A DNA stretch of 64,000 bases, taken from positions 1-64,000 of IMG/VR virus record IMGVR_UViG_3300010883_000017; one strand, given 5' to 3'. Under the pieces are notes generated by a model. It did no database searches. It was given only the letters and a program-made list of their open reading frames with translations, and was not told the origin of the DNA. The DNA comes from a virus. The translations under genes and the position numbers were made by a program. Positions 6,320 through 16,682 of this stretch are shown piece by piece; the first letter of the stretch is position 1, and each line of letters begins with the position of its first letter.

Positions 6320-6579
6320 TGACATTAACACGAAGCACGCCTATTTGCGTGAAATGTAAAGTGATTATGAAGTGTCACAAAAATGCTCAATTTGTACAGG
6401 ACCCGACTGTTGGCGGGTTTCCGAGCACAGTTTGGAGTGGGGATGTCTGGAAATGTCCAGGCTGCTCGTGTAAGGTTGTAACTGGTTTCGGGTCGGCTAT
6501 CGTTAACGGTGTTGGCTCAGTTGATGTTTTAGAATTTAAGTGGGACCTCAAAAGTCCCAACGAAAACGAAGGAGAGTAG
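6319..6579 (+). CDS. small zinc-ribbon protein
   Basis: CVKC...WKCPGC. Confidence 0.6.
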   Translation: MTLTRSTPICVKCKVIMKCHKNAQFVQDPTVGGFPSTVWSGDVWKCPGCSCKVVTGFGSAIVNGVGSVDVLEFKWDLKSPNENEGE

Positions 6580-10158: not shown

Positions 10159-10750
10159 GCGCCCTAAGTCAGCGCGCCTGCATAGCTTGTTACAGGAGTT
10201 GGATATCAAATCCTGGGACGTGCTCTTAATAGGGGATGGTTCCGGCAGCGGCTGGGATATCGGGGTTGGTTGGTCGTGCGTAGTGATAGATCGATATACG
10301 AAGTCTCGGAAGCTAATACACGGCGGCGGTAGTACAGGAACTGTAAATATCGCGGAGCTGATGGCCTACGTGCACGCCATGCTTTGGTACTCTACCCACA
10401 TAGGCCGTGAGCTGCGCAAGCAATACCCTCGCAAGATTCTCAATATTCATGTAATCACGGATTCCCGTGTTATTGTGACCCAGGGCAAGAAGGTTGCAGA
10501 ACGGAACACAGAAGGGCTGGCTAACCGCGCGTTGTGGGCATCCATCAGCGATATCGCCCGCCAGGGTTACACATTCCACTGGCATTGGATCGCGCGGCTC
10601 ACTAATGAATTGAACTGGGCGGCCGATCAGATGGCAGGCTCAGCCAGAAAAGCTGTAAAAAATTGCATGCTTACTGAGGACGTGCCGGATGAGAACGGCA
10701 AGTATACGGGGGTGTCGATATACGACATCAACCCACTAATTAAAAAATGA
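10145..10750 (+). CDS. rnhA: ribonuclease HI
   Basis: Catalytic pattern IGDGS...VNIAEL...ITDS...NRALW...WHWI...N..AD; start uncertain (track ORF begins 10079). Confidence 0.82.
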   Translation: MKKSKRPKSARLHSLLQELDIKSWDVLLIGDGSGSGWDIGVGWSCVVIDRYTKSRKLIHGGGSTGTVNIAELMAYVHAMLWYSTHIGRELRKQYPRKILNIHVITDSRVIVTQGKKVAERNTEGLANRALWASISDIARQGYTFHWHWIARLTNELNWAADQMAGSARKAVKNCMLTEDVPDENGKYTGVSIYDINPLIKK

Positions 10751-10868
10751 CCAAAGGTTAGCGAAGAATAGCAAAGTGAGGTTGCGGCTAGTTATGCGTG
10801 GGTGTGAAATTTCGTGCATTGTTTAGCAAGTGCCCCCGTTATGTAGAAATATATACCGGGGGATTTTT
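10749..10868 (+). ncRNA. detached array unit U0 (pentamer tract + GAAA hairpin + U-tract)
   Basis: 10754-10828 reads aaggt tagcg aagaa tagca aagtg aggtt gcggc tagtt atgcg tgggt gtgaa atttc gtgca ttgtt tagca (G at position 3 in 14/15), then cccccgttatgta-GAAA-tatataccggggg-attttt-aatccaag, matching the array repeat. Confidence 0.8.
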
Positions 10869-10932
10869 AATCCAAGTGCAGTGAAGAGAGACTAGAAGTG
10901 CAAATCCAAGTAACACAAGGCAAAGTAGGACA

Positions 10933-11481
10933 ATGAATATCTGCCATGAGCACGAGTTCATACTATGGGCACACCCGAGAACCGCAGCGCGTTTTGTATA
11001 TTCTGCGCTGCGGAACCGCGGAAGCATGGGTCCTCTCACGCATCGAACCGGTGTTCCGATAGACGGCGCTGGTTACAGTGTTGTTTGCACGGTGCGCAAT
11101 CCCTATACGCGAATGCTATCTGCGTGGAAGTGGACGAATGCGGTGGGAAAGCAGCGGTACTCGCCGGAGAGTTTTACGGAGTTTGTAAGAAAGCACACGC
11201 CGTTATGGGGGTTACCGCCGATTTCAAAGGACCTGGGCCACAAGTTGAAGATGGTCAAATACTTTGTGCGCACAGAGTCGATTGAGAAAGACTTACGCGC
11301 ACTCCCCTGGGTTCCGGACACACATTCGTTCCCCAAGAATACGTACTGTAGTAATTATAAGGGCTACACTCCGACCGCTTTGTATGACGAAGAAGCACAA
11401 GAGAAAGTTCGCCGGTTGTATTGCGGAGATTTTGCAGAGTTCGGATACGATCCAGATGTGATTCCCGCAACGTTTTATTAA
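10933..11481 (+). CDS. sulfotransferase family 2 protein
   Basis: HPRTA, VRNPYTRMLSAW, FVRTESIEKDL, LY..D...FGY. Confidence 0.8.
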   Translation: MNICHEHEFILWAHPRTAARFVYSALRNRGSMGPLTHRTGVPIDGAGYSVVCTVRNPYTRMLSAWKWTNAVGKQRYSPESFTEFVRKHTPLWGLPPISKDLGHKLKMVKYFVRTESIEKDLRALPWVPDTHSFPKNTYCSNYKGYTPTALYDEEAQEKVRRLYCGDFAEFGYDPDVIPATFY

Positions 11482-11494
11482 CGAAAGAAGGACA

Positions 11495-11755
11495 ATGAGA
11501 GTAACGGAGATTTCTGTAGAAGTAGGCAGAACTGCCACCATTAATTACCAGAGCGCGCGCAACTCAGTTGGTCTTACAGCCACCCTAGCGGCTGATGACC
11601 ACGCGCCTACCGCGATCCGCTCGTTACAAAAGCAAGCCGTAGATATGCTTCTAGGTGACAACGAACAATTTCGGGACGCCGAAAATGTGACTTCTGTGGA
11701 TGCGGAGAGCCTAGATGCGGCTATTCGTGCAGGGGCGGAGTCTCGCGAACACTGA
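11495..11755 (+). CDS. hypothetical protein
   Basis: AAGGA RBS, compact ORF. Confidence 0.6.
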   Translation: MRVTEISVEVGRTATINYQSARNSVGLTATLAADDHAPTAIRSLQKQAVDMLLGDNEQFRDAENVTSVDAESLDAAIRAGAESREH

Positions 11756-11796
11756 TTTACCGTGGGTAACGGGCAAATACTTTGTTATCCATAACA

Positions 11797-12810
11797 GGAT
11801 TTTTGATCTAAGTCGTGCCCCGTAGTGTGGAGAGGATCTAAGAGGACTACCGCCGACAACAGGAAGTACGGTATGCATCCTTGGCGTGCAGAAATGTGCG
11901 CCAGGGGTTTTTTGATCTAAGGCCAGTCTTGAGGAACGAAGTTCGGGAAAGTCTCGATGAGTTTACTTGTGTACTGCCAATTTTAGTTCGCAATAGTGAT
12001 GGAAAGCGGTGCGGATTTTAGCGCGGCGTAGTACAGTGCCCCCGCCATGTGGAAACGCGTGGCGGGGGATTTTTGATCCAAGGGAAGAGGCGCAAAGGGG
12101 TACCAAGTTGAGCTCCGCATACAAACGCTTAGAACTCGGCAGTACAGCGAGGGATAGCGCTGCGCAGCGATGCGTAGACTAATGTAAGTAAGCATCCCTG
12201 TCGTATGGAAACATGCGCCAGGGATTTTTTGATCTAAGAAATAGCAAAGCAGCGTACGGGCATGATCACTCATAACAAGTCGAGCGCACTCTAGGTGTGT
12301 GCGGTATACAAGAGTAACAGCCCCCGTCATGTAGAAATGTGTGACGGGGGATTTTTGATCTAAGCCGGGTAGGGTAGAGGGATGCTCGGTAAATACCAGC
12401 CGGGACAAGTGTGGCCGTCAAGTGCGGGCTCAGTTAAGTTAGCGCTTCCGTCGTGCAGAAATGTGTGGCGGGGGATTTTTGATCCTAGGAAAGAGCCGTT
12501 GTGGCAAGTGGAGAGGAGCCCAGACCAGCATCGTATAGTAGCGCTCGGTCAAGCTCGGGATACCTTAGCCCGCGTAATCAGAGATGGTTGCGCGGGTATT
12601 TTTGGCCCCGTTCGTCTAGTGGACTAGGACACCGGCTTCTCAAGCCGGGAACAGGAGTTCAATTCTCCTACGGGGTACATTTTGATCCAAGTGGAGTCGA
12701 TATTACCGGTGTATAGGGGAGGCTAGTCCTGCAACGAGCAGTTCTGCGTCGCTCAGATAACCAGACTAGTGGGCCCGGGCGTTCGTTACGGGCGCTCGGG
12801 CTCATTTATT
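11797..12810 (+). repeat. tandem non-coding RNA array of 7 units: GATCYAAG + (AGY-NN)n tract + hairpin + U-tract
   Basis: Unit starts (GATCYAAG/GATCCTAG) at 11805, 11914, 12075, 12231, 12357, 12481, 12684. GNRA hairpins begin near 11879, 12039, 12195, 12321, 12445, 12568, with G-U pairs and compensatory changes; the last unit ends in a different GC hairpin (12771-12803). Tracts differ between units but are 5-nt periodic. Confidence 0.92.
12605..12677 (+). tRNA. tRNA-Glu (anticodon CUC), embedded in the array
   Basis: Acceptor gccccgt/acggggt, D arm gtctagtggactaggac, anticodon arm ccggc-ttCTCaa-gccgg, T arm aggag-ttcaatt-ctcct; no complete CCA encoded. Confidence 0.9.
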
Positions 12811-12812
12811 AC

Positions 12813-13889
12813 GTGGCAAACTGGGTTCAAATAGGGAATGTAAATATGAAAAGCAGGAAGAAAAAAGTTAAGCAAAATACAAAGCGAAACGCGCCGAAAA
12901 CATCAGTTTTGCGCCGCAAGAATACACGTTTAATGAGCAGGACTTCCGGAGGACGGCAGTCAGTTGTCGAAGCGCGTCTTGATAAAAAGGCCGATACAAT
13001 TTTGGCCAAAGCAAAAATCATCAAGATAGCTGCGCAACCAACAAAGGTGTACCGCACTGTGAAAATTGACGATCTCCAGATCGACAACTCTTATCAGCGT
13101 CCGCTGAAAGAAGGTCATATTGCTGACATCATGATGTACTTCAATTGGGAGGGCTTCGGCACACCAGTTATAGGACGCCGTACTGGTGGCGGGCTATGGT
13201 TAATTGACGGGCAGCAGCGGATTACCGCAGCGCAGCGCTTGGGTGCTACCAGCGTTGGCGCAGAGATCCGCGATTCTGTAGGGCCCAAATATGAAGCAAG
13301 TCTGTTTCATTTGTTGAACTCAACGAGCGTCGTCCCGACGAAGATGCAGATCTTCCGCGCGGCATTGCGCGCGGGTAATAAGAACGCCGTTGCTATCAAT
13401 AAAGCAGTTAAAGAGGCGGGATTTCAAATCCATTTGAATGCGGTCAATTATAGCGGCAGCGAGTGGCCGTATATTCGAGCACTCAGTCGTTTAGAAAAGC
13501 TGTTTAAGTACGGCGGCGTACAATTTCTTACGGAGGTGCTCTCGATAATTAGTGAGACGTGGCCGGAAGAAGATGACGCAGTTCGCGAGGACGTTATCGG
13601 TGGAATGCACCGGTTTATTCGTTTTACTCGGTACAGTGATCCGCGCCCCAAGGGCTGGTTGCACGAGCTCATGCCCACAAGGGGGATGACGCGCCGCGAT
13701 CGTATCGTAGAGGCGATTACGCAGAAGGGTCTGACTGCTGCAGGCTTACATAACAAAGCTGCGAACAGCAAGGAATCGGCGTCTGGCTACAGCCGCGCCG
13801 AAGCTGTGCAGCGTATCTTGGACGAGACGTGCAGGTTTAATAGCCGCCGTAGAACGCCTAAAAGTACCGCTGCCGACGACATGGTTTAA
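12813..13889 (+). CDS. ParB/DGQHR-like (DUF6551-type) protein
   Basis: LQIDNSYQRPL ... LWLIDGQQRITAA ... EASLF..LN; the real start may be ATG 12846. Confidence 0.7.
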   Translation: MANWVQIGNVNMKSRKKKVKQNTKRNAPKTSVLRRKNTRLMSRTSGGRQSVVEARLDKKADTILAKAKIIKIAAQPTKVYRTVKIDDLQIDNSYQRPLKEGHIADIMMYFNWEGFGTPVIGRRTGGGLWLIDGQQRITAAQRLGATSVGAEIRDSVGPKYEASLFHLLNSTSVVPTKMQIFRAALRAGNKNAVAINKAVKEAGFQIHLNAVNYSGSEWPYIRALSRLEKLFKYGGVQFLTEVLSIISETWPEEDDAVREDVIGGMHRFIRFTRYSDPRPKGWLHELMPTRGMTRRDRIVEAITQKGLTAAGLHNKAANSKESASGYSRAEAVQRILDETCRFNSRRRTPKSTAADDMV

Positions 13890-13902
13890 TACATGCGTAT
13901 AA

Positions 13903-14018
13903 GCCCCCACACACACACTTTGCGTGTGTGCGGGGGTTGTTTACTGCTCTGTGCTGCTGCGCGATACAAAGCGGAGCTGGGTCAAGCGGAGAAATGCCCG
14001 GGCCAGCATAGCAGAGTT
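13903..14018 (+). promoter_or_regulatory. hairpin plus pentamer-periodic tract in the leader of the RAMP-like gene
   Basis: ccccc...ggggg hairpin at 13903-13937, then 13944-14018 ctgct ctgtg ctgct gcgcg ataca aagcg gagct gggtc aagcg gagaa atgcc cgggc cagca tagca gagtt (G at position 3 in 14/15). Confidence 0.75.
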
Positions 14019-14051
14019 TTTGTTTTTGAAATTAAATGGAGGAATTTGAGT

Positions 14052-14846
14052 ATGCCAACCACAAAAAAGGCCCCTAAAAAGGCCACTAAAAAGAGAGGCG
14101 TTAAAGGAAATATGTCTGCGATGTTAGCAGAGATGCCAGACGACGCGCTTGCTACCATAGAAAAAGAGGGGGGAGACCTTCTCGACCTGGAGCTTATTGA
14201 GTTTCACTGGTTGGAGTGTGAAATCATCGGATCAAGTCCTTTGGTTACTAATCGGTTCTCTGATGAGTCTTTGGATGCGATCGAGGGTAATCAGACCCAA
14301 GGAGCAACTGGTAAGAAGCTTAAGAAGCCCCCGCGACAACCTGAGAAGGAGTTTATGCAGGCTGCGCATATATGTAAGGGGAAAGCAGATCCTGCGCACC
14401 TTGAGAAGAACATCTATGGATTTCCCGCTGTCGCTTTGAAAAAGGCCATGGCTAACGGGAACTACAGATACGGAGGCGCGAAGGATAAGGTGTCGCAGAT
14501 GGGCGCATTTCATGTGCACGGCCCCTGGCACGGGCTGATCGAGGTGCAGGGGCTTGATGACAAGCCGTGTATCCCCTCGATGGGACGTGATATGGTCCAG
14601 CTTCCTAAGGGGCAGATTGCGTCTATCGCGTATAGACCATACTACTTCCCGTGGAAGATGAGCGTATTTATCCGGTATTGTCCGACCTTGATGTCCAAGG
14701 ACGAGCTGATTCACGCCCTGTATATCGCAGGCAATTGCATCGGCATTGGTTCTTGGCGCACGGAAAAGAGCGGGGACAAGGGCTCGTTCGACGTCGGTGA
14801 TATCAAGTACCACGGAAAAAACTTCCAAGCACCTCTGTGCTCGTAA
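14052..14846 (+). CDS. stand-alone RAMP / Cas7(Csm3)-like RNA-binding protein
   Basis: GGAGG RBS before ATG 14052; beta1 ECEIIGSSPLV, YGFPAVALKKAM (cf. Csm3 PYIPGSSLKG), C-terminal G-rich loop GIGSWRTEKSGDKGSFDV. Confidence 0.72.
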   Translation: MPTTKKAPKKATKKRGVKGNMSAMLAEMPDDALATIEKEGGDLLDLELIEFHWLECEIIGSSPLVTNRFSDESLDAIEGNQTQGATGKKLKKPPRQPEKEFMQAAHICKGKADPAHLEKNIYGFPAVALKKAMANGNYRYGGAKDKVSQMGAFHVHGPWHGLIEVQGLDDKPCIPSMGRDMVQLPKGQIASIAYRPYYFPWKMSVFIRYCPTLMSKDELIHALYIAGNCIGIGSWRTEKSGDKGSFDVGDIKYHGKNFQAPLCS

Positions 14847-14858
14847 ATAGTTAGTTAC

Positions 14859-14906
14859 GCCCCCGGCCTCGTTGATTATGTCAGCGGGGCCGGGGTTATT
14901 TTTTTT
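14859..14906 (+). terminator. intrinsic terminator after the RAMP-like gene
   Basis: ccccggcctcgttga/tcagcggggccgggg stem followed by a T8 tract. Confidence 0.75.
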
Positions 14907-14925
14907 GGCTTCTGGAGAAACAACA

Positions 14926-15177
14926 ATGTCAGATCCTACTGAAAGCATTCGACGAGAAATGGTTGCTCACATTAATAACGAGCCGGCCACACGAGAGCAA
15001 CTTGAAGAGCAGCACGGACGCGTATGGGATACCGCAGAAATGCAAAAAGACTTCGAGGTACTTGGTTTCATGGCACCGCTCGTGGTCGTTAAGAGAACCG
15101 AAGACGCCGTTCGCGGCGCGTTGGAATTCCAACATGCCCCGCGCTTCTATTACGGCTTTACGGAATCACAGGGATAG
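14926..15177 (+). CDS. conserved phage hypothetical protein
   Basis: GGAG RBS; FEVLGFMAPLVVVKR...G.LEFQH.PRFY. Confidence 0.65.
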   Translation: MSDPTESIRREMVAHINNEPATREQLEEQHGRVWDTAEMQKDFEVLGFMAPLVVVKRTEDAVRGALEFQHAPRFYYGFTESQG

Positions 15178-15180
15178 CCT

Positions 15181-15819
15181 GTGCATATTGTCCACATCAT
15201 CGCATCTGAAGGAGCAGATGCCGATGATGCCCGCCTGATGGCGGAAAACGGGATAGAAGGCTACGGCAACGGAGACGTGTGGGATTGGTACGAGGTTGGA
15301 GGTCGCTGGGAGGGCTTTATCGGTGCCACTTATGGTGAAACTGGAGAAGAGCAAGTCCCGGGGGTAAACCAGCTTTGTTACGCAGAGAATCCCGAGTTAT
15401 TTAACGAAACCATAGACAACGCGATCAGCGGTCGAAACGCTGAGTTACTTGAGGCGTTACACGCCATCCGTGGTGACGTAATTAGTTCTGAGGTAGTTCC
15501 TGAGCACTTCATGGGCCTGCCCATAGATAATAAAGAAGCAGTGGCAAAAAGGGTATCAGAGCAAAATGTTGCACACAGCGCCGAGTGGCAGGCACTACTA
15601 GCCTGCAATACAGTGGCCGATCTGGACAAGATAAACGGCCAACACCACCTGGTGTTTTACAAGGTTTACAAACTAATGAAGGGGGTGATGGGTCACTATG
15701 ATTTTGACAGCCGCTTTTACGACGCAGACGCCGGTAGCACGGGCCGCTCGTACGTAGACGACCGGAAGGGGTGCGACCCGGATAAACAATGGATTACCGT
15801 TTTTGACCTACACAATTAA
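15181..15819 (+). CDS. phage hypothetical protein (WDWYxxGGRW motif)
   Basis: WDWYEVGGRWEG and terminal W.TVFDLHN. Confidence 0.65.
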   Translation: MHIVHIIASEGADADDARLMAENGIEGYGNGDVWDWYEVGGRWEGFIGATYGETGEEQVPGVNQLCYAENPELFNETIDNAISGRNAELLEALHAIRGDVISSEVVPEHFMGLPIDNKEAVAKRVSEQNVAHSAEWQALLACNTVADLDKINGQHHLVFYKVYKLMKGVMGHYDFDSRFYDADAGSTGRSYVDDRKGCDPDKQWITVFDLHN

Positions 15820-16085: not shown

Positions 16086-16682
16086 ATGGCGACCACGGAA
16101 ACGGCACAAACCCCGGCGCTAGCCACGCCAGTTGAAGTTCGATTTAGAGCTGCAACAGGTTCGCGCTTTAATAAAGCAGATGCTGAACGAATTGGGCCCG
16201 AACTACTGCGGCTGAAGAAGCACCACGGAGTTCTTACCAAGGATCTACTTGTACAAAAGGCGCAGAGCGCCCGCTCGATCTTGCATGCTGATTTTAATTG
16301 GGATGACGCAACAGCTGCGCATGCCCACCGATTGGAGCAAGCACGTTACATACTGCGGTCCATCATGATTGTGTGGGATGAGAGCACACCTGATGGCGGT
16401 GTCGAGCAGGTGTCTACGCGCTTGTTCCACAGTGTCCGCGTGAACAGCGATGATGAGGATGCCCCAACAAACCGCGGTACCCGCAGTCAACGCGTACACG
16501 TCACGTTTCGAGATGTGGTTGAGAACCCGGAATACGCTCAACAGGTCATCGATTCTATGGAACGAGCAGTAGTGCGGTTGGATGCACGATTTCGGTTTTA
16601 TTTGGATAAAGTTCCAATGTTTGCCGAAAGGTACCAGGGACTTTTTGACGAGATTACCGCCTTGGAAGATAACATAGACTAG
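16086..16682 (+). CDS. conserved phage protein (LH..F.WDD..AA..HRL.QAR family)
   Basis: AAGGAGG RBS; motif IG.EL..L....G.LT...LV..A....S.LH..FNWDD..AA.AHRLEQAR.I.RSI. Confidence 0.7.
   Translation: MATTETAQTPALATPVEVRFRAATGSRFNKADAERIGPELLRLKKHHGVLTKDLLVQKAQSARSILHADFNWDDATAAHAHRLEQARYILRSIMIVWDESTPDGGVEQVSTRLFHSVRVNSDDEDAPTNRGTRSQRVHVTFRDVVENPEYAQQVIDSMERAVVRLDARFRFYLDKVPMFAERYQGLFDEITALEDNID

What the first reader, a model, noticed from the sequence alone, without database searches (positions are those of the whole stretch)
13903..14054. Pentamer tract in the 5' leader of the RAMP-like gene suggests autoregulation
Seen: 15 pentamers with G at position 3 in 14, preceded by a ccccc/ggggg hairpin and ending about 20 nt before the GGAGG RBS, with no closing hairpin. 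This is the strongest sequence-level link between the protein and the array. Inference: excess protein polymerises on its own mRNA and blocks translation, matching protein level to guide RNA level.
Basis: partly seen in the sequence, partly recalled or inferred. Interest (0 to 1): 0.78.

Follow-up and report, generated by a model that had tools for sequence, protein, structure and literature searches.

The report
Upstream VIPR guide RNA before vipr
The five-base rhythm in front of this marine phage gene is real and is a guide RNA of a VIPR system (a CRISPR-like DNA silencer described in 2026) aimed at the catalytic motif of cytosine DNA methyltransferase genes; that it also throttles translation of its own protein is possible but untested.

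Summary
There are 15 in-phase pentamers at 13945-14019, with G at the fixed position in 14 of them. A CCCCC/GGGGG hairpin lies before the tract and no hairpin follows it. The tract ends 18 nt before GGAGG and 32 nt before the ATG at 14052.

The gene is a Vipr protein: it has a Cas7/RAMP fold, and its only significant PDB sequence hit is SUSP1 Vipr. The tract is the upstream guide (vrRNA) of a published VIPR system with the known non-canonical repeat (only G and Y fixed).

The variable dinucleotides carry target information. Read antisense with one skipped base per unit, they spell LIGGFPCQPFS(H/Q)A. That gapped pattern matches 26 of 26 informative bases, in frame, in two bacterial C5 methylase genes. 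An 11-unit core (22 informative bases) matches at least 119 phage contigs exactly.

So the tract is first of all a guide. SUSP1 also carries a guide in the vipr leader.

Two features are unusual. This unit alone lacks the GAAA-hairpin/U-run tail of the array units, and a 75%-identical relative shares that layout. Another relative (69%) has no leader tract at all.

Autogenous translational control stays an untested add-on; I put it at about 0.2. This scan reached the same verdict on leader tracts in other genomes. It is a new member of a known kind.

The parts
12813..13889 (+). ParB-like / DUF6551 gene directly upstream. Conserved upstream of vipr in close relatives only.
   Evidence: Pfam PF20188 at E 1.2e-10 and PHROG ParB-like families. 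tblastn hits in L006 and L008.
13903..13942 (+). Long hairpin (CCCCC...GGGGG feet, CA/TG-repeat stem) followed by TTGTTT. It resembles an intrinsic terminator with a weak U-run and forms the 5' boundary of the guide tract.
   Evidence: A CA-repeat length polymorphism between environmental variants is seen.
13945..14019 (+). Upstream vrRNA guide tract: 15 units of N-G-Y + NN. The NN bases read antisense with a 1-nt skip give (K/N)L(I/M)GGFPCQPFS(H/Q)A(D/E), which is C5 DNA methyltransferase motif IV.
14020..14037 (+). AU-rich unstructured spacer (a T-run, then GAAATTAAAT). It partly resembles the TTTTTGATCYAAG linker of the array but has no hairpin.
14038..14042 (+). Shine-Dalgarno sequence GGAGG, 9 nt before the ATG.
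14052..14846 (+). vipr gene (264 aa): a minimal Cas7-like RAMP with a Lys-rich disordered N-terminus and the G-loop GIGSWR.
14861..14905 (+). Strong intrinsic terminator after vipr.
10756..12770 (+). vrRNA array. It holds eight TTTTTGATCYAAG linkers, each followed by a period-5 tract. Most units end in a GAAA-loop hairpin plus U-run. tRNA-Glu is embedded at 12605-12678.
16086..16682 (+). Candidate accessory gene (vap): homologs lie just downstream of vipr in 17 of the fetched loci, including several distant ones.
   Evidence: Only phrog_15946 matches. No BLASTP similarity to SUSP1 vap1.

Best explanation
The tract at 13945-14019 is the upstream guide RNA (vrRNA) of a phage VIPR system. It sits in the leader, or intercistronic region, of the vipr gene and is most likely transcribed on the same RNA as vipr. 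By homology with SUSP1 Vipr, one Vipr protomer binds each 5-nt unit. It holds the G-Y scaffold and presents the two variable bases. Those bases pair with double-stranded DNA while skipping every third base, which in a coding target is the codon wobble position. This guide reads the antisense of the catalytic motif IV (GGFPCQPFS) of C5 cytosine DNA methyltransferases. It therefore directs transcriptional silencing of such genes in rival phages or other mobile elements, or in the host. A second guide in the array (12453-12558) covers the GGPPCQAF variant of the same motif. The missing closing hairpin is most simply explained by position. In this clade the vrRNA tail is a hairpin plus U-run, which resembles a terminator, and a unit placed before vipr cannot keep it without cutting off vipr transcription.

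Shown here: the periodicity, the decoding and real targets, the Vipr homology and fold, and the layout in relatives. Inferred: co-transcription, RNP formation, and silencing of methylase genes.
For: Periodicity is far beyond chance.

Protein identity:
- The AF2 model has pLDDT 74.
- The top Foldseek hits are Cmr4, Csm3 and type VII Cas7, at E 1e-6 to 1e-4.
- The only significant PDB sequence hit is 36pp, 'SUSP1 Vipr protein', at E 1.3e-8.
- hhalign against SUSP1 Vipr gives probability 95.9% and E 6e-9, and aligns the G-loop.

Decoding:
- The 13-unit gapped pattern (26 informative bases) has 2 exact hits in 596 Gb of genomes, where about 3e-4 are expected.
- Both hits lie in frame in PF00145 methylases (E 2e-95 and 1e-92) at DILIGGFPCQPFSHAG and DLLMGGFPCQPFSHAG.
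- The 11-unit core has at least 119 exact hits in IMG/VR. All 120 scored sites (viral contigs plus the two genomes) read GGFPCQPFS(Q/H)A in frame and score 24-28 of 30.

Literature:
- VIPR guides use exactly this 1-nt-skip code.
- SUSP1 has one vrRNA upstream of vipr.
- Repeats with only G and Y fixed ('YNNNG') are reported (bioRxiv 10.64898/2026.04.26.720920; 10.64898/2026.10.21.760802).
- In the SUSP1 record, a sigma-70-like promoter, vrRNA1 and vipr follow each other with no obvious terminator between them.

Relatives:
- Period-5 tracts flank vipr homologs in most fetched loci.
- L006/L007 (75% identical Vipr) has a tract at the same position that also lacks the tail. Its scored run is 10 units, about 15 by eye, and the NN bases differ. 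Its array units keep GAAA hairpins.

Weak hint of co-transcription: contigs of two metatranscriptome runs span 13896-14206 and 13609-14097.
Against: - This unit lacks both the 5' GATCYAAG motif and the 3' hairpin tail that the array units share. The SUSP1 authors treat the tail as what makes a vrRNA competent for complex formation, so its competence as a guide is not assured.
- No promoter was found, so the transcription start site is unknown.
- RNA-library contigs can come from contaminating DNA and do not prove a single transcript.
- No full 30/30 target was found, and the true host and rivals are unknown.
Confidence: 0.85

Rival explanations
1. Dual use: the guide is also an autogenous translational operator. 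When Vipr exceeds the free vrRNAs, it polymerises on the guide tract of its own mRNA. The filament, or processing triggered at its 3' end, then blocks 30S loading on the nearby SD/AUG. This would match Vipr supply to guide supply, in the manner of T4 gene 32 protein on its own leader.
For: - The tract and the SD lie on one unstructured stretch with no hairpin or terminator between them.
- The filament would end 32 nt before the AUG, at the edge of the roughly -35 to +19 ribosome footprint on mRNA. That footprint figure is from my own knowledge, not checked here.
- The same layout, with the tract ending close to the start codon, recurs in L006/L007 (28 nt), L030 (23 nt), L015 (36 nt, with a hairpin but no U-run) and L020 (45 nt).
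- Only the leader unit has lost the tail, in both W and L006.
- RNA-library contigs bridge the tract and the CDS.
Against: - No direct evidence exists.
- The 69%-identical relative L008/L009 has no leader tract and carries its vipr-adjacent guide downstream instead. L010 (77%) has none or only a remnant. Ten of 18 distinct loci have no tract within 260 nt upstream.
- The SD is 18 nt beyond the last unit, so direct occlusion is not obvious.
- Loss of the tail is explained more simply by the need to read through into vipr.
- The VIPR preprints do not report such control.
Confidence: 0.2
2. Relic unit: a former array unit that lost its tail and 5' motif when vipr or its neighbour was inserted. 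On this view it is now a non-functional passenger in the leader.
For: It lacks both conserved flanks of the array units. The first five scaffolds have T or C rather than A at the first position, and one lacks the G. L010 appears to retain only the tract's 3' end (AGCAGAG plus a T-run).
Against: Thirteen consecutive units still match real methylase genes perfectly and in frame, which drift would quickly destroy. T/C/G-G-Y scaffolds are as common in the array units. The leader position is also occupied, by a different guide, in L006/L007.
Confidence: 0.07
3. Self-targeting at the DNA level: the guide represses vipr or another gene of the same phage by binding its own genome.
For: VIPR guides that target vipr genes or vrRNA loci are described for SUSP1-family phages. 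An earlier scan note raised the idea on other DNA.
Against: The best gapped match in the 64-kb window is 19 of 30, inside the range of shuffled guides (17-21). The 73.8-kb record has no match to the 11-unit core with up to 3 mismatches.
Confidence: 0.03

Closest known systems
vrRNA1 of the Escherichia phage SUSP1 type II VIPR locus (bioRxiv 10.64898/2026.04.26.720920; structure 10.64898/2026.04.26.720927, PDB 36pp)
   Same: - A tandem 5-nt-repeat guide on the same strand, directly upstream of vipr, with no terminator between them.
- A homologous Vipr protein.
- The 1-nt-skip code falling on the wobble positions of a coding target.
- Phage-encoded, with further guides in an array.
   Different: - The scaffold is N-G-Y rather than GGY. 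The two residues that read the first G in SUSP1 (H17, D177) align with N67 and S234 here.
- SUSP1 vrRNA1 has a pseudoknot tail of about 40 nt and ends about 105 nt before the ATG. Here there is no tail and the gap is 32 nt.
- The array tails here are GAAA-loop hairpins with U-runs, and a tRNA is embedded in the array.
- The target class is C5 methylases rather than satellite or prophage genes.
- The conserved partner gene is unrelated to vap1.
Non-canonical VIPR arrays: 'YNNNG' repeats in 10.64898/2026.04.26.720920 (methods), and WGT/NN and TGH/NN clusters in 10.64898/2026.10.21.760802
   Same: Only part of the trinucleotide scaffold is fixed, the period is 5, and a Vipr-like fold is encoded nearby.
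   Different: Those reports describe arrays. I found no mention of a guide without a tail fused to the vipr translation start region.
Autogenous translational control by cooperative nucleic-acid-binding proteins: T4 gene 32 protein on its own mRNA leader, and TRAP on 11 (G/U)AG repeats (from my own knowledge, not checked here)
   Same: A protein that coats a periodic or unstructured RNA could also coat its own leader next to the SD. TRAP likewise reads triplets spaced about 5 nt apart.
   Different: This is an analogy of logic only. There is no homology and no alternative terminator/antiterminator fold, and the tract carries target information that such operators lack.
CRISPR class 1 Cas7 backbone on crRNA
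   Same: A RAMP fold with a G-loop, one subunit per fixed RNA step, and periodic unpaired bases.
   Different: The step is 5 nt with 2 pairing bases, not 6 nt with 5. There are no CRISPR repeats and no cas genes, the system is phage-borne, and its expected action is silencing of dsDNA.

Membership tests
VIPR system (Vipr + vrRNA) | Vipr protein: a minimal RAMP (RRM core, G-loop, thumb) homologous to SUSP1 Vipr | tested here: met
   Foldseek gives Cas7-family hits at E 1e-6. A profile search of the PDB has SUSP1 Vipr (36pp) as the only significant hit, at E 1.3e-8. hhalign probability is 95.9%.
VIPR system (Vipr + vrRNA) | Tandem 5-nt repeats with a conserved scaffold trinucleotide alternating with hypervariable NN, next to vipr | tested here: met
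   The tract has 14 of 15 G and 13 of 15 Y. Eight further tracts lie in the window, and tracts flank homologs in most loci. The scaffold is N-G-Y, the reported 'YNNNG' variant, not the canonical GGY.
VIPR system (Vipr + vrRNA) | NN bases match natural targets under the 1-nt-skip rule, with the skipped base at the codon wobble position | tested here: met
   26 of 26 informative bases match in frame in two PF00145 genes. At least 119 viral contigs match the core of 22.
VIPR system (Vipr + vrRNA) | Invariant structured 3' tail after the repeat tract | tested here: not met
   For this leader unit, no hairpin or conserved tail lies between 14019 and the SD. The array units of the same locus do have a conserved GAAA-loop hairpin. 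The system therefore meets this feature but this unit does not.
VIPR system (Vipr + vrRNA) | vrRNA expressed and bound by Vipr as an RNP that silences dsDNA targets | not testable with these tools
   The only data are contigs from two metatranscriptome runs that cover the tract and the vipr 5' end. These do not prove transcription.
Autogenous translational operator (T4 gp32-type) | The protein binds its own mRNA leader and lowers its own translation | not testable with these tools
   The geometry is compatible, with the tract ending 32 nt before the AUG and no structure in between. No functional data exist. The tract is absent in L008/L009.
Protein-coding extension or upstream ORF | Conserved open frame with codon periodicity and a start signal | tested here: not met
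   The frame from ATG 13893 has no SD and runs through the hairpin. Homologs start at the aligned M(A/P)TTKK, with stop codons just upstream. A period of 5 is not codon-like.

The most novel reading that the evidence does not exclude
In this VIPR clade the guide in the leader position serves two roles. It is a working guide against C5 methylase genes, and because it has shed its tail and abuts the ribosome-binding site, it is also the operator through which Vipr limits its own synthesis once array guides are saturated. That would be a gp32-like feedback loop built from a guide RNA.
Probability: 0.2. Interest if true: 0.6.

Novelty: new member of a known kind. Interest (0 to 1): 0.3.

Why it matters
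The finding adds a marine-phage example to a system family that is only months old, and it gives three concrete points for people working on VIPR:
- A natural guide without the tail, fused to the vipr translation start region, conserved in position in a 75%-identical relative. This gives a test of whether the tail is needed for loading.
- Two guides in one phage aimed at two sequence variants of the catalytic motif of C5 DNA methyltransferases. This is a broad target class that differs from the satellite and prophage regulators reported so far.
- A simple, testable feedback hypothesis.

None of this changes the picture of what VIPR is.

Tried and rejected
- blastn of 12800-15200 against cultured phages gave no match.
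- Rfam found only two tRNAs.
- The sigma-70 promoter scan found nothing in 12.5-15.5 kb, so the vipr promoter remains unknown.
- A TRAP-like attenuator was rejected: there is no alternative terminator/antiterminator fold, and only the upstream hairpin is stable. L006 likewise shows no conserved structure.
- Translation of 13893-14051 was rejected.
- Self-targeting was rejected.
- The full 13-unit pattern has no exact hit in IMG/VR. The 10-unit pattern of the L006 leader guide also has none there, so its target is unknown.
- The two RNA runs gave no contig over the array at 10700-12960. This is not interpretable, because small RNAs are lost in standard libraries and gaps in contig coverage prove nothing.
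- The candidate accessory protein at 16086-16682 shows no BLASTP similarity to SUSP1 vap1.
- Complex prediction was not used, because the question concerns protein-RNA binding.

Full report
**Observation.** The window is the first 64 kb of a 73.8-kb IMG/VR virus record. Environmental runs that hold this stretch are marine or seawater metagenomes.

Between the stop codon of a ParB-like/DUF6551 gene (12813-13889) and the ATG at 14052 lie the following elements:
- A long hairpin at 13903-13936 with CCCCC/GGGGG feet, followed by TTGTTT.
- Fifteen in-phase pentamers at 13945-14019.
- An AU-rich 18-nt spacer.
- GGAGG at 14038-14042.

G occupies the fixed position in 14 of 15 units, and a pyrimidine follows it in 13 of 15. 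Only 3 of 300 Markov surrogates of the whole window contained any such run, and 0 of 20,000 local shuffles did. Period-5 G runs are otherwise concentrated at 6.4-14 kb. Most lie in an array of eight TTTTTGATCYAAG linkers. Each linker is preceded by a GAAA-loop hairpin, or once by tRNA-Glu, and followed by a tract.

**What the gene is.** The 264-aa product has no Pfam hit and only an unknown-function PHROG.
- An AlphaFold model built on 13 homologs has pLDDT 74. It matches Cmr4, Csm3 and type VII Cas7 subunits at E 1e-6 to 1e-4.
- A profile search of PDB sequences returns one significant hit, 36pp 'SUSP1 Vipr protein', at E 1.3e-8.
- hhalign against the SUSP1 gene product gives probability 95.9% and aligns the G-loop, GIGSWR here against GVGDWR in SUSP1.

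A lead from earlier notes of this scan pointed me to the VIPR preprints, which I then read. They report the following:
- Vipr is a minimal phage RAMP.
- One protomer binds each 5-nt repeat of a vrRNA, sequestering GGY and presenting NN.
- The NN bases pair with dsDNA while skipping every third base, usually the codon wobble position.
- Binding silences transcription.
- SUSP1 has one vrRNA upstream of vipr and three downstream.
- Variants with only part of the scaffold fixed exist ('YNNNG', WGT/NN and others).

In SUSP1, H17 and D177 read the first G. They align with N67 and S234 here, which fits a scaffold whose first base is free. That last link is my inference.

**What the tract is.** I took the two bases after each G-Y as NN and read them antisense as codon positions 1-2. 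This gives (K/N)L(I/M)GGFPCQPFS(H/Q)A(D/E), which is motif IV, the catalytic PCQ motif, of C5 cytosine DNA methyltransferases.
- The 13-unit gapped pattern (26 informative bases) has two exact hits in 596 Gb of prokaryote genomes. One is a Marinicella contig and one a Burkholderiales MAG. About 3e-4 hits are expected by chance.
- Both hits lie in frame in PF00145 proteins, at E 2e-95 and 1e-92. The skipped base falls on the wobble position, and the sites read DILIGGFPCQPFSHAG and DLLMGGFPCQPFSHAG.
- The 11-unit core has at least 119 exact hits in IMG/VR.
- All 120 scored sites read GGFPCQPFS(Q/H)A in frame and match 24-28 of the 30 informative bases.
- The unit that lacks the scaffold G (13966) still decodes in register.
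- The array unit at 12453-12558 decodes to DLIIGGPPCQAF, so the phage carries two guides for two variants of the same motif.

A binding site that only had to recruit Vipr would not need this information. The tract is therefore a guide.

**Is it in the vipr mRNA, and is it translated?**
- No sigma-70-like promoter is predicted. There is no room for one between the hairpin and the tract, or between the tract and the SD.
- In the 69%-identical relative L008/L009, vipr starts about 25 nt after the T-run of a terminator-like hairpin that closes the same ParB-like gene. In this clade vipr therefore seems to be reached by transcription through such hairpins.
- Contigs of two seawater metatranscriptome runs span 13896-14206 and 13609-14097. 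This is only a weak hint, because DNA can contaminate RNA libraries and a contig is not a transcript.
- The in-frame ORF from 13893 is not conserved. Homologs align from M(A/P)TTKK and have stop codons just upstream.

**Relatives.** Period-5 tracts flank vipr homologs in Gordonia and Mycobacterium phages and in most metagenome loci. Among 18 distinct loci:
- Five have a same-strand tract ending within 50 nt of the start codon. The gaps are 32 nt in this window, 28 nt in L006/L007, 23 nt in L030, 36 nt in L015 and 45 nt in L020.
- Three have a tract ending 84-135 nt upstream: L017, Zizzle and SUSP1.
- Ten have none within 260 nt.

L006/L007 (75% identical Vipr, with synteny conserved from g10079 to g16086) is the informative case. 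Its leader position is occupied by a different guide, whose scored run is 10 units and about 15 by eye. That guide is again followed only by an AU-rich spacer, while its array units keep GAAA hairpins with U-runs. L015 keeps a hairpin after the leader tract but without a U-run. L008/L009 has no leader tract, and its vipr-adjacent guide sits downstream with a hairpin-terminator. L010 (77%) has at most a remnant.

In SUSP1 a TTGACA/TATACT promoter, vrRNA1 with its tail, and vipr follow one another. The last repeat lies about 105 nt before the ATG. The published expression constructs carry vrRNA1 plus vipr behind one promoter.

**Mechanism.** My best reading, at 0.85, is that this is the upstream vrRNA of a VIPR system. 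It is probably made from the same transcript as vipr, and it directs Vipr filaments to C5 methylase genes of rivals or hosts. The missing closing hairpin follows most simply from position. In this clade the tail resembles a terminator, and a unit in front of vipr cannot keep it.

The stretch is unstructured, the filament would end at about -33 from the AUG, and the layout recurs. It is untested, it is absent from close relatives, and the preprints I read do not mention it. I put it at about 0.2 as an additional function.

I give a relic unit 0.07, because 26 of 26 bases still match real targets. DNA-level self-targeting is not supported: the best match is 19 of 30, inside the shuffled range, and the record has no core match.

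**Novelty.** The system, the non-canonical scaffold and an upstream guide are all published, and this scan reached the same verdict on leader tracts in at least three other genomes. New here are the leader unit without a tail, conserved in position in a relative, and the methylase target. I class it as a new member of a known kind.

Noticed in passing
window 16086-16682: This 198-aa protein of unknown function (phrog_15946) has homologs just downstream of vipr in 17 of the fetched loci, among them Gordonia phage Pipp and Mycobacterium phage Zizzle. It is the likely accessory (vap) gene of this VIPR type. It shows no BLASTP similarity to SUSP1 vap1.
   Followed up: partly
window 12453-12558 and 13945-14019: Two guides of one phage decode to two sequence variants of C5 methylase motif IV (GGPPCQAF and GGFPCQPFS). 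This suggests broad coverage of cytosine methyltransferase genes.
   Followed up: partly
window 12605-12678: tRNA-Glu (CUC) is embedded in the vrRNA array and takes the place of one hairpin, directly followed by the ATTTTGATCCAAG linker. This suggests the array is processed from a precursor transcript.
   Followed up: no
window 12364-12414 and L006:3020-3050: The two related phages share the NN string AG GA TC AA CC CG CA in an array unit, which points to a shared guide. Their leader guides differ.
   Followed up: no
window 13903-13936: The CA/TG repeat stem of the hairpin varies in length between environmental variants: one RNA run has an extra CA, and another has a 2-nt deletion plus C>T at 13931.
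   Followed up: no
L002:3581-3850 (Gordonia phage Pipp gene 43); L003:2563-2751 and the 5' end of gene 54 (Mycobacterium phage Zizzle): Annotated hypothetical CDSs, or CDS starts, overlap dense GGY/NN period-5 tracts next to the vipr homolog. They are probably vrRNA arrays mis-called as protein-coding.
   Followed up: partly
window 6425-6495: A further period-5 G run (score 9-10, weak scaffold) lies inside or next to small ORFs far from the array. It is unclear whether it is a guide.
   Followed up: no
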